This document shows positions 2,318-2,830 of a stretch of DNA of 64,000 nucleotides, piece after piece. How positions within the stretch are numbered: position 1 is the stretch's first letter; each line of letters opens with the position of its first letter. The position numbers were made by a program, and so were the translations under genes. Source of the stretch: Malacoraja senta (Eukaryota); the NCBI GenBank assembly GCA_038087875.1, contig CM075991.1:5518001-5582000 (forward strand). Direction: 5' to 3'. The notes beneath the pieces are model-generated. The model had not been told where the DNA came from. It was given only the letters and a program-made list of their open reading frames with translations, and did no database searches.

Positions 2318-2830
2318 TGTGAAAAATATACATCCTCTAGATGCGCTGGGACGCATCCTCAGTGGTGTGACCTGGGATCATCGGGTGTTTCGGGTCTCAC
2401 AACATCAGACACCCTCGCTCAGGCGACCCAGCCGGGGTTGATCAGGCCCCGACTTGCGTCCCAGCAGCAACCGCCCACAGATCAGCCATCTTAATAACTA
2501 CTCTGCAGGGGTTGGGAGACTCTAGTGCGTGGAGGGACTTGGGCTCTGTGGGGTGAATCCCGACTGGGCTCACCAGGTTCAAGGCCCTGTGCACTGCACC
2601 TCTTTCTCCTTCTCCAAGCATTTCATTCCCGCCTGATGGATTTTTAGGCCACGGTGGTTCATTAGGCCTTTCCGTAGCTTTGTTAGGTGTCTTTCTCACG
2701 AAAGACACAGACTGGGGTGCTAACCCAGCCTGTCCCGGGTGCCGTCTTTCCGTGCCGTCAACTGTCTCTCCAGTAGTCACCAAACTATTCTTGGTTGTCA
2801 CCCAGTCTATTCCTAGGTGCCACTGGCTGA
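2318..2830 (-). mobile_element. Internally deleted HERO/NeSL-like (restriction-like endonuclease group) non-LTR element
   Basis: Minus strand reads MNHRGLKIHQAGMKCLEKEKEVQCTG (N-terminal zinc-finger remnant), joined to a C-terminus IKMADLWAVAAGTQVGA* and a structured 3' UTR. No RT between them. Family assigned from recalled motifs. Confidence 0.6.

What the first reader, a model, noticed from the sequence alone, without database searches (positions are those of the whole stretch)
2356..2429. Candidate strand-permuted hammerhead ribozyme in the 3' UTR of a HERO-like retrotransposon
Seen: the minus-strand consensus of two copies is GGGUC G CCUGGG C GA GGGUG UC^ UGAUGU UGUGA GACCC GAAA CACCC GAU GA Y CCCAGG UC ACAUCA CUGAGGA. 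GGGUGU pairs with ACACCC so that GUC faces GAAAC (stem III). UGAUGU directly after GUC pairs with ACAUCA directly before CUGAGGA (stem I). GACCC before GAAA can pair with the upstream GGGUC (stem II). Established: CUGANGA, GAAA and NUH in this register define the hammerhead core, and types I-III all share one cyclic strand order. Here the order is GUC, then GAAA, then CUGANGA, the opposite cyclic order, which needs a pseudoknotted fold and would be missed by standard descriptors. Inference: a non-canonical hammerhead cutting between 2408 and 2407, about 90 nt from the element end. Caveats: A9 is not contiguous with the stem II strand, and the hairpin GAUGCG/CGCAUC could sequester G8-A9. I do not know of a prior description but cannot check.
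Basis: partly seen in the sequence, partly recalled or inferred. Interest (0 to 1): 0.85.

Follow-up and report, generated by a model that had tools for sequence, protein, structure and literature searches.

The report
Rewired hammerhead ribozyme in HERO retrotransposons
The tail end of a widespread family of animal jumping genes carries a conserved RNA motif with all the catalytic letters of a hammerhead ribozyme in an unusual order, predicted to fold through an extra four-way junction and cut the element's own RNA, which would likely let the element copy itself from an RNA circle.

Summary
Confirmed and larger than reported. The motif lies 90 nt from the 3' end of an internally deleted HERO-type non-LTR retrotransposon. 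It recurs behind the endonuclease gene in 47 of 62 relatives with enough 3' sequence, against 1 of 1240 shuffles. Among 37 non-redundant sequences (50% mean identity), stems I, II and III covary (96.5% paired, 124 double changes). A helix-only search returns the hammerhead core unasked, with N7 free and H17 almost never G; one lineage has the U3-A8 core swap.

The S-G-C order is in print (Eckert 2023, metatranscriptomes only). What I found nowhere: stem II's partner lies upstream, and A9 leads instead into two extra covarying helices, making a four-way junction with no spacer. There is also a k-turn-like bend and a palindromic loop. Copies carry head-to-tail 5' extensions that run through the cut site, which fits a circular RNA template but does not prove one. 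Cleavage is untested and RNA reads were inconclusive.

The parts
2318..2842 (-). Non-autonomous, internally deleted HERO-type element (about 525 nt): 5' UTR and N-terminal zinc-finger codons joined to the last codons of the ORF and the 3' UTR; sharp 3' end, no poly(A) tail
2843..2850 (-). Short 5' extension that repeats the element's own 3' end (head-to-tail junction at 2843/2842)
2455..2466 (-). Helix Px, 5' strand (in the last codons of the ORF); pairs with 2344-2355
   Evidence: compensatory changes between families A and B
2430..2454 (-). Hairpin Py; its loop holds the palindrome UGAUCA (2439-2444), which includes the ORF stop codon
2425..2429 (-). Stem II, 5' strand (G10.1 at 2429), supplied from upstream
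2415..2424 (-). 5' strand of the stem III extension, ending in the GA of the k-turn-like motif (this copy changed at 2419)
2408..2414 (-). Stem III 5' strand and GUC triplet; predicted cut between 2408 and 2407
2402..2407 (-). Stem I strand after the cut site
2383..2396 (-). Block G: stem II 3' strand (2392-2396), GAAA (2388-2391), stem III 3' strand (2383-2387)
2369..2382 (-). Three-base bulge and GA of the k-turn-like motif, then the 3' strand of the stem III extension
2356..2368 (-). Stem I partner strand (2363-2368; mismatch at 2365 in this copy) and the CUGANGA core (2356-2362)
2344..2355 (-). Helix Px, 3' strand, starting directly after A9
369..504 (-). Second, 5'-truncated copy: holds the core blocks, lacks the Px 5' strand and has a stem III mismatch

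Best explanation
This is a conserved 3' UTR motif of HERO-type non-LTR retrotransposons with the full hammerhead core in S-G-C order, predicted to fold through a four-way junction and self-cleave about 90 nt from the element end, likely to cut read-through transcripts of head-to-tail copies into unit-length RNAs that would close into circles and serve as the template for reverse transcription. Shown by comparison: the core letters, stems I-III, the upstream origin of the stem II strand, helices Px and Py with no spacer at the junction, and the more-than-unit-length genomic copies. Inferred: Px and Py stack on each other while the G.A pairs of the core stack on stem II (a four-helix junction); a k-turn bends the stem III extension back so that its far end can feed stems I and II; cleavage (about 0.88); release of a unit-length RNA from copies with two ribozymes (about 0.7); circle formation and reverse transcription from an internal start that runs more than once round (about 0.5).
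For: Clade-wide presence against controls. On a MAFFT alignment not fitted to the structure, stems I-III are 96.5% paired with 124 double-sided changes; 0 of 500 shuffles reach this and slid controls give 34-44%. The three junction-closing pairs all form in 34 of 37 sequences. The combined II+Px+Py score is 17-18 of 18 in 27 of 37 sequences and in 0 of 2220 upstream shuffles run through the same optimiser. Helix-only search, 48 of 62 loci above the score cut: C3 45, U4 47, G5 47, A6 45, G8 45, A9 47, G12 42, A13 47, A14 48, U16.1 45; N7 takes all four bases; H17 is G in 2. Sister loci L198 and L215 carry U3 with A8, and L224 U3 with G8; U3-A8 for C3-G8 is a known hammerhead core covariation (PMC4209133). 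49 exact head-to-tail junctions in the genome. In 48 of them the extensions are 9-376 nt, 18 pass the cut site and none ends between 83 and 93 nt. Of 61 distinct 3' ends, 40, 36 and 30 match the first, second and third base of the next unit's start. Extensions share 16 non-majority variants with their own 3' end against 4.1 expected, in 23 copies.
Against: No cleavage experiment. Poly(A) RNA reads from a related species (run X22, about 6% read) cover the motif about 30-40 deep on both strands, with no pile-up of ends at the cut site; this is weak, since old copies dominate. The commonest variant site differs between extension and own 3' end in 5 of 19 copies that cover it (read from the alignment), more than one pass round a single circle should leave. 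Own-end identity beats the mean of other copies in only 14 of 23. L165 joins two elements only 68% alike head to tail, which a circle does not explain (assembly chimera not excluded). Px and Py statistics come from an alignment fitted to pairing. Eckert et al. state that no known hammerhead has more than 1-2 nt between the CUGAnGA and its stems, so this junction has no tested precedent.
Confidence: 0.65

Rival explanations
1. The ribozyme is real but works only on linear RNA. The upstream copy in a head-to-tail pair frees the element's 5' end from a host transcript, as the R2 HDV-like ribozyme does. The tandem copies come from template jumping or from insertion next to existing copies.
For: R2 ribozymes act this way, R2 RT continues on non-continuous templates (a cited title), and Penelope-like elements are said to insert beside existing copies (PMC6765202 passages). 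Discordant variants between extension and own end, the heterologous tandem L165 and signs of 3' UTR exchange between lineages fit jumping.
Against: A linear RNA cut at its 5' ribozyme should give extensions that stop at 90 nt; none does and 18 of 48 run past. The junction is exact in 49 copies, though the pattern selected for exactness. 3' ends run into the next unit's first bases.
Confidence: 0.22
2. The fold is a conserved protein-binding or packaging signal for the reverse transcriptase that keeps hammerhead geometry but is held mostly inactive, or cleaves only as a dimer or when ribosomes unwind Px, limiting the element's own mRNA.
For: A cut in the 3' UTR would remove the 3' end that ordinary target-primed reverse transcription needs (general knowledge). 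Px and Py overlap the last codons and the stop codon in this family. The Py loop is palindromic in 27 of 37 sequences against 11.5% in shuffles. RNA reads cross the site.
Against: Conservation follows the catalytic pattern exactly, including free N7, H17 not G and the 3-8 swap, which a binding signal need not keep.
Confidence: 0.1
3. It is an ordinary type-SGC hammerhead in which the strand after A9 (with one extra base) forms stem II; the upstream pairing is an off-state.
For: In the window family the strand after A9 could form 4 of 5 pairs with the block G strand. The published SGC descriptor allows an extra U there.
Against: Across 37 sequences that pairing is 50% formed, no better than slid controls (38-53%), against 94.5% for the upstream strand. 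The strand after A9 covaries with Px instead.
Confidence: 0.03

Closest known systems
Type-SGC hammerhead ribozymes (HRIMA-1 and variants; Eckert, Friedrich, Weinberg, Weinberg 2023, PMC10085705)
   Same: Same 5'-to-3' order of cleavage site, GAAA and CUGAnGA; same core letters; stems I, II and III cross each other as pseudoknots.
   Different: There the strand right after A9 forms stem II and an extra helix ties stems I and II; here A9 leads into Px and the stem II strand comes from upstream of the cut site through a four-way junction. Those were found in metatranscriptomes and none in genomes of known organisms; this one is a fixed part of an animal retrotransposon clade. The published descriptor would miss this family, by inspection.
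Hammerheads of Penelope-like elements and retrozymes (Cervera and de la Pena 2014, PMC4209133; review PMC6765202)
   Same: A hammerhead in a terminal repeat of a retroelement with head-to-tail, more-than-unit copies; those authors propose cleavage, circularisation and more-than-unit reverse transcription, the model borrowed here.
   Different: Those are type I or minimal hammerheads that lack helix III and act as dimers, in elements with a GIY-YIG nuclease. This one has a full 6-bp stem III, reversed order and sits in an element with a restriction-like nuclease.
HDV-like ribozymes of R2 and L1Tc non-LTR retrotransposons
   Same: Self-cleaving RNA that processes a non-LTR element out of a longer transcript; R2 is also a restriction-like-nuclease element.
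   Different: Different ribozyme class, at the 5' end. I found no report of a ribozyme in the HERO clade.
HERO clade elements, including the Tetraodon element 'with tandem structure' (Bouneau et al. 2003; title seen only)
   Same: Single ORF with RT and restriction-like nuclease, dispersed insertion, tandem arrangement. Pufferfish proteins Q7T1J8 and Q76IN2 are homologs; that these are Zebulon and HEROFr is recalled, not from a call.
   Different: I could not read the paper, so I do not know how it explains the tandem copies or whether it notes 3' UTR structure.

Membership tests
Hammerhead ribozyme | Core letters C3 U4 G5 A6 N7 G8 A9, G12 A13 A14, U16.1, H17 | tested here: met
   Helix-only search returned them in 42-48 of 48 loci per position; N7 free; H17 G in 2 of 48
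Hammerhead ribozyme | Stems I and III in register with the core, with covariation | tested here: met
   97-98% of cells paired; 8 of 9 pairs with double-sided changes
Hammerhead ribozyme | Stem II closed by G10.1-C11.1 next to G12 | tested here: met
   G in 36 of 37 at 10.1; C 30, U 6, A 1 at 11.1; helix 94.5% paired
Hammerhead ribozyme | A9 joined to the stem II strand directly or by 1-2 nt | tested here: not met
   That pairing is 50% formed, equal to slid controls; A9 leads into Px. This is the variant feature.
Hammerhead ribozyme | Position 3-8 pair of the active core | tested here: met
   U3-A8 in sister loci L198 and L215, U3-G8 in L224; one lineage event for the double change
Hammerhead ribozyme | Site-specific self-cleavage after NUH | not testable with these tools
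   RNA reads inconclusive
Hammerhead ribozyme | Peripheral contact between stems I and II | not tested
   Stems I and II are tied by a short A-rich linker (A in 28-29 of 37 at two positions); no contact was modelled
Type-SGC hammerhead | Block order S, G, C | tested here: met
   against the definition
Type-SGC hammerhead | Block C unbroken (stem I strand, CUGAnGA, stem II strand) | tested here: not met
   it works like type SGC but is not filed as one
HERO-clade non-LTR retrotransposon | One ORF with RT, zinc knuckle and PD-(D/E)XK-type nuclease | tested here: met
   Homologs of about 1080 aa carry RVT_1 and a weak zf-RVT; nuclease motifs read by eye from recalled pattern; longer copies with the nuclease region in this genome share the same 3' UTR
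HERO-clade non-LTR retrotransposon | Groups with named HERO references in an RT tree | not tested
   No named reference set was available; the label rests on recalled identities of Q76IN2 and Q7T1J8
HERO-clade non-LTR retrotransposon | Mostly non-specific insertion (PMC4640811) | tested here: met
   3' flanks are unrelated among the copies seen
Kink-turn | Helix, 3-nt bulge, tandem G.A/A.G pairs, second helix (definition recalled) | tested here: inconclusive
   Sequence pattern in 29 of 37; no chance control was run and the 3D kink is untested
Penelope-like element / retrozyme | GIY-YIG nuclease or no coding origin; type I hammerhead | tested here: not met

The most novel reading that the evidence does not exclude
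A whole clade of LINE-like elements (HERO) replicates through a circular RNA made by a hammerhead of a new wiring: non-circularly permuted, with the core broken between A9 and G10.1 by a four-way junction, bent by a k-turn, and carrying a palindromic kissing loop that pairs two RNAs as retroviral dimer signals do. Reverse transcription would start inside the circle with no free RNA 3' end.
Probability: 0.4. Interest if true: 0.95.

Novelty: new variant of a known kind. Interest (0 to 1): 0.86.

Why it matters
For ribozyme chemistry, it would break the working rule that the CUGAnGA strand must run straight into stem II. It adds a fourth separable block to the hammerhead and moves non-circular permutations from environmental RNA contigs into animal genomes, with dozens of natural variants ready to test. 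For mobile-element biology, it would give the HERO clade a ribozyme, at the 3' end where non-LTR elements are not known to have one. It makes the question of why these elements occur head to tail directly testable, and suggests that HERO and Penelope-like elements reached a similar ribozyme-and-circle cycle separately. A short in vitro transcription would settle the first half.

Tried and rejected
Canonical SGC stem II (strand after A9): rejected. Whole-motif folding z-scores were modest (-1.5 and -1.9), as expected when pseudoknots are not modelled. Rfam: nothing. Viral contigs: no motif match and no protein relative. Sequencing runs: no holder on record as RNA. One raw poly(A) run of a related species and three contig sets showed low two-strand coverage, no end pile-up at the cut and no joint bearing on it; the flanks of the laid stretch were another repeat that swamped the tables. 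A pattern meant to find full-length copies with extensions gave 3 hits, all deleted derivatives. Contig starts in L151, L156 and L220 repeat the element's 3' end but are assembly ends and were not used. The 2003 pufferfish paper and the 2012 hammerhead review were not held; Repbase could not be searched. Of 15 long-UTR loci missed by the descriptor, 13 show a damaged or variant motif by eye and 2 (L188, L203) show none. Descriptor pass rates among old genomic copies were 21 of 30 (family A) and 20 of 40 (family B).

Full report
OBSERVATION. A search of the window's own genome (1.94 Gb) gave 1197 candidates, of which 40 were scored, at 95-100% identity. In the 30 loci fetched, the similarity ends at one sharp 3' end without a poly(A) tail in all but one (L026), 90 nt behind the predicted cut. 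Both window copies carry private damage; most aligned copies have intact stems I and III. Rfam knows nothing here.

THE ELEMENT. Translation of the copies shows an N-terminal zinc-finger-like peptide fused to a short C-terminal peptide. Its homologs are fish retrotransposon proteins of about 1080 aa with RVT_1. P0007 and P0009 end in the same C-terminal residues. The nuclease region has relatives in many fish, in lancelets and in bivalves (190 of 619 candidates). The window copy is therefore an internally deleted derivative of a restriction-like-nuclease non-LTR element. I call it HERO-type from recalled identities of two pufferfish proteins; no tree with named references was made. The genome holds at least two longer families, about 80% and 60% identical to P0007 over the nuclease region (2704 candidates, 150 scored; 30 and 40 loci examined).

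A SECOND FAMILY SHOWS THE HIDDEN HELICES. Px pairs the strand directly after A9 with the last codons of the ORF. Py is a hairpin between the Px 5' strand and the upstream stem II strand. Both form in the minimum-energy fold of the window copy.

CLADE-WIDE TEST. I fetched relatives by the nuclease protein alone, so without regard to the RNA motif: 345 confirmed stretches, best 80 kept, 79 loci. A descriptor asking for the core and stems I and III in S-G-C order hit 54 of 79 loci and 47 of the 62 with at least 250 nt of 3' sequence. Controls gave 0 of 62 reverse strands, 1 of 358 upstream windows and 1 of 1240 shuffles. From 57 parsed sequences (54 metagenome, two genome copies, the window) I kept 37 under 85% identity, dropping truncated and redundant ones; mean identity is 50%. 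On a plain MAFFT alignment, stems II, III and the first three pairs of I are 96.5% paired, with 124 double-sided changes; 0 of 500 shuffles reach this and slid controls give 34-44%. Stems I and III were partly demanded by the descriptor; stem II was not. The canonical alternative, stem II from the strand after A9, is 50% paired, like its slid controls. Px and Py were counted on a fitted parse: 31-36 of 37 per Px position and 28-36 of 37 per Py position, with up to all four Watson-Crick pair types. The same optimiser on shuffled upstream sequence never reached 17 of 18 in 2220 trials, while 27 of 37 real sequences did. All three junction-closing pairs form in 34 of 37. Relatedness was not modelled in these counts, but the sequences spread over many branches of a protein tree.

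THE CORE IS NOT AN ARTEFACT OF THE DESCRIPTOR. A search for helices and spacings only, on the 62 loci, gave 48 above the score cut. Between the helices it returned C3 45, U4 47, G5 47, A6 45, G8 45, A9 47, G12 42, A13 47, A14 48 and U16.1 45 of 48. N7 was U 27, C 12, A 5, G 4, and H17 was G in only 2. Spacings were taken from the known cases. Five of the six G12 exceptions are G-to-A at a CpG, as expected of dead copies (inference). Two sister loci have U3 with A8, and a third relative U3 with G8. The U3-A8 swap is a described hammerhead core covariation (PMC4209133, passages). This is one lineage event, but hard to explain without hammerhead geometry.

PREDICTED ARCHITECTURE. Order: Px5', Py, II5', extension 5', III5', NUH cut, I5', short linker, II3', GAAA, III3', extension 3', I3', CUGANGA, Px3'. 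A9 runs into Px, Px into Py, Py into G10.1, and C11.1 into G12, with no unpaired base: a four-helix junction in which the G.A pairs can still stack on stem II (inference). Stem III is followed by a three-base bulge and tandem GA/GA in 29 of 37, the k-turn pattern as I recall it. Such a bend would bring the far end of the extension back to stems I and II, which the strand order requires (inference; no chance control). The Py loop centre is a six-base palindrome in 27 of 37 against 11.5% in shuffles, in six different spellings, which suggests loop-loop pairing between two RNAs (inference).

ROLE. Copies are more than one unit long. An exact head-to-tail pattern occurs 49 times, against 0 for the reversed control. 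In 48 of these (one duplicate of the window locus left out; L066 and L075 are also duplicates) the 5' extension repeats 9-376 nt of the 3' end. 18 pass the cut site, none stops between 83 and 93 nt, and 7 reach far enough to hold a whole second ribozyme. So the template was continuous across the cut site. At the other end, 40, 36, 30 and 19 of 61 distinct 3' ends match the first four bases of the next unit, so the template seems continuous across the element's end too, and copying starts internally. A unit-length circle has both properties; so has an uncut linear tandem transcript. Extensions share 16 non-majority variants with their own 3' end against 4.1 expected in the 23 copies tested, which favours a common template. 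Against a pure circle: the commonest variant site disagrees in 5 of 19 copies, own-end identity leads in only 14 of 23, and L165 joins two elements 68% alike. RNA reads did not decide. I commit to cleavage, release of unit RNA from two-ribozyme copies, circle, and more-than-unit reverse transcription, the cycle proposed for Penelope-like elements, at about even odds for the circle step.

WHAT IS KNOWN. Eckert et al. 2023 (PMC10085705; main text read from abstract to discussion; supplement parts 1 and 8 of 42 and one search) describe type-SGC hammerheads and show that they cleave at 0.007-0.19 per minute. They assume the three blocks cannot be interrupted, and found none of the SGC type in genomes of known organisms. 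Unread supplement parts hold their alignments and could bear on how close their variants come. The block order is thus known; the broken block C, four-way junction, k-turn-like bend and retrotransposon setting are not in that text. Searches for a HERO ribozyme or this junction gave no such report: one search found 0 papers, only Eckert, and four papers, of which I read passages of one (PMC7650587) and the listing of the others. Also seen as passages only: PMC4640811, PMC6765202, PMC6155905, PMC2684134, PMC7599744, PMC6274825 and bioRxiv 10.64898/2026.07.22.740005. Bouneau 2003 was seen as a title only. Subscription journals and Repbase were not searchable, so absence from print is not certain.

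VERDICT. Real feature; hammerhead-like function very likely; new variant of a known kind; interest 0.86.

Noticed in passing
L184, L186, L221 (3' UTR) against the tree: L184 and L221 group by nuclease protein with L170/L179/L198 but carry a differently styled ribozyme behind about 100-150 nt of extra UTR (L186 is near-identical to L184 there); L163 and L204 may show the reverse. Suggests 3' UTR exchange between HERO lineages.
   Followed up: no
L165:85-7266: Two full-length HERO-type elements only 68% alike lie head to tail, each with its own ribozyme; template jump, targeted insertion or assembly chimera.
   Followed up: partly
L175, L197, L206, L211, L201: A lineage with an altered stem III extension: L175, L201 and L206 have a short 3' linker and a one-sided bulge in place of the k-turn-like motif; L175, L197 and L211 have a short Py hairpin without a palindromic loop.
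   Followed up: no
P0015 N-terminus: A predicted protein from a 4.3 kb contig begins by reading through 3' UTR-like sequence upstream of the ORF, so autonomous relatives also carry the 5' extension.
   Followed up: no
L225: A second, independent internal deletion derivative of the same family, also with a head-to-tail extension.
   Followed up: partly
L185 (whole contig, 3891 nt): Contig ends overlap by 55 nt, as an assembler gives for a circle or a collapsed tandem.
   Followed up: no
window 1-64000 against G000:C15:4896078-4899267 (L002): The locus around the finding has a near-identical second copy about 620 kb away on the same contig, in opposite orientation: recent duplication or assembly duplicate.
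   Followed up: no
window 52834-53018 and 8887-8985: SINE-like copies arranged as near-perfect fold-backs (92-nt arms, 98% complementary, 1 nt apart at 52834-53018).
   Followed up: no
window 5832-7545 and 54135-56397: Two inverted copies of another long repeat with open frames of 250-400 codons, probably a different LINE; not identified.
   Followed up: no
window 2326-2340 (minus strand): A small terminal hairpin just before the element's 3' end in the predicted fold; similar arms are seen in family B. Candidate signal for where reverse transcription starts.
   Followed up: no
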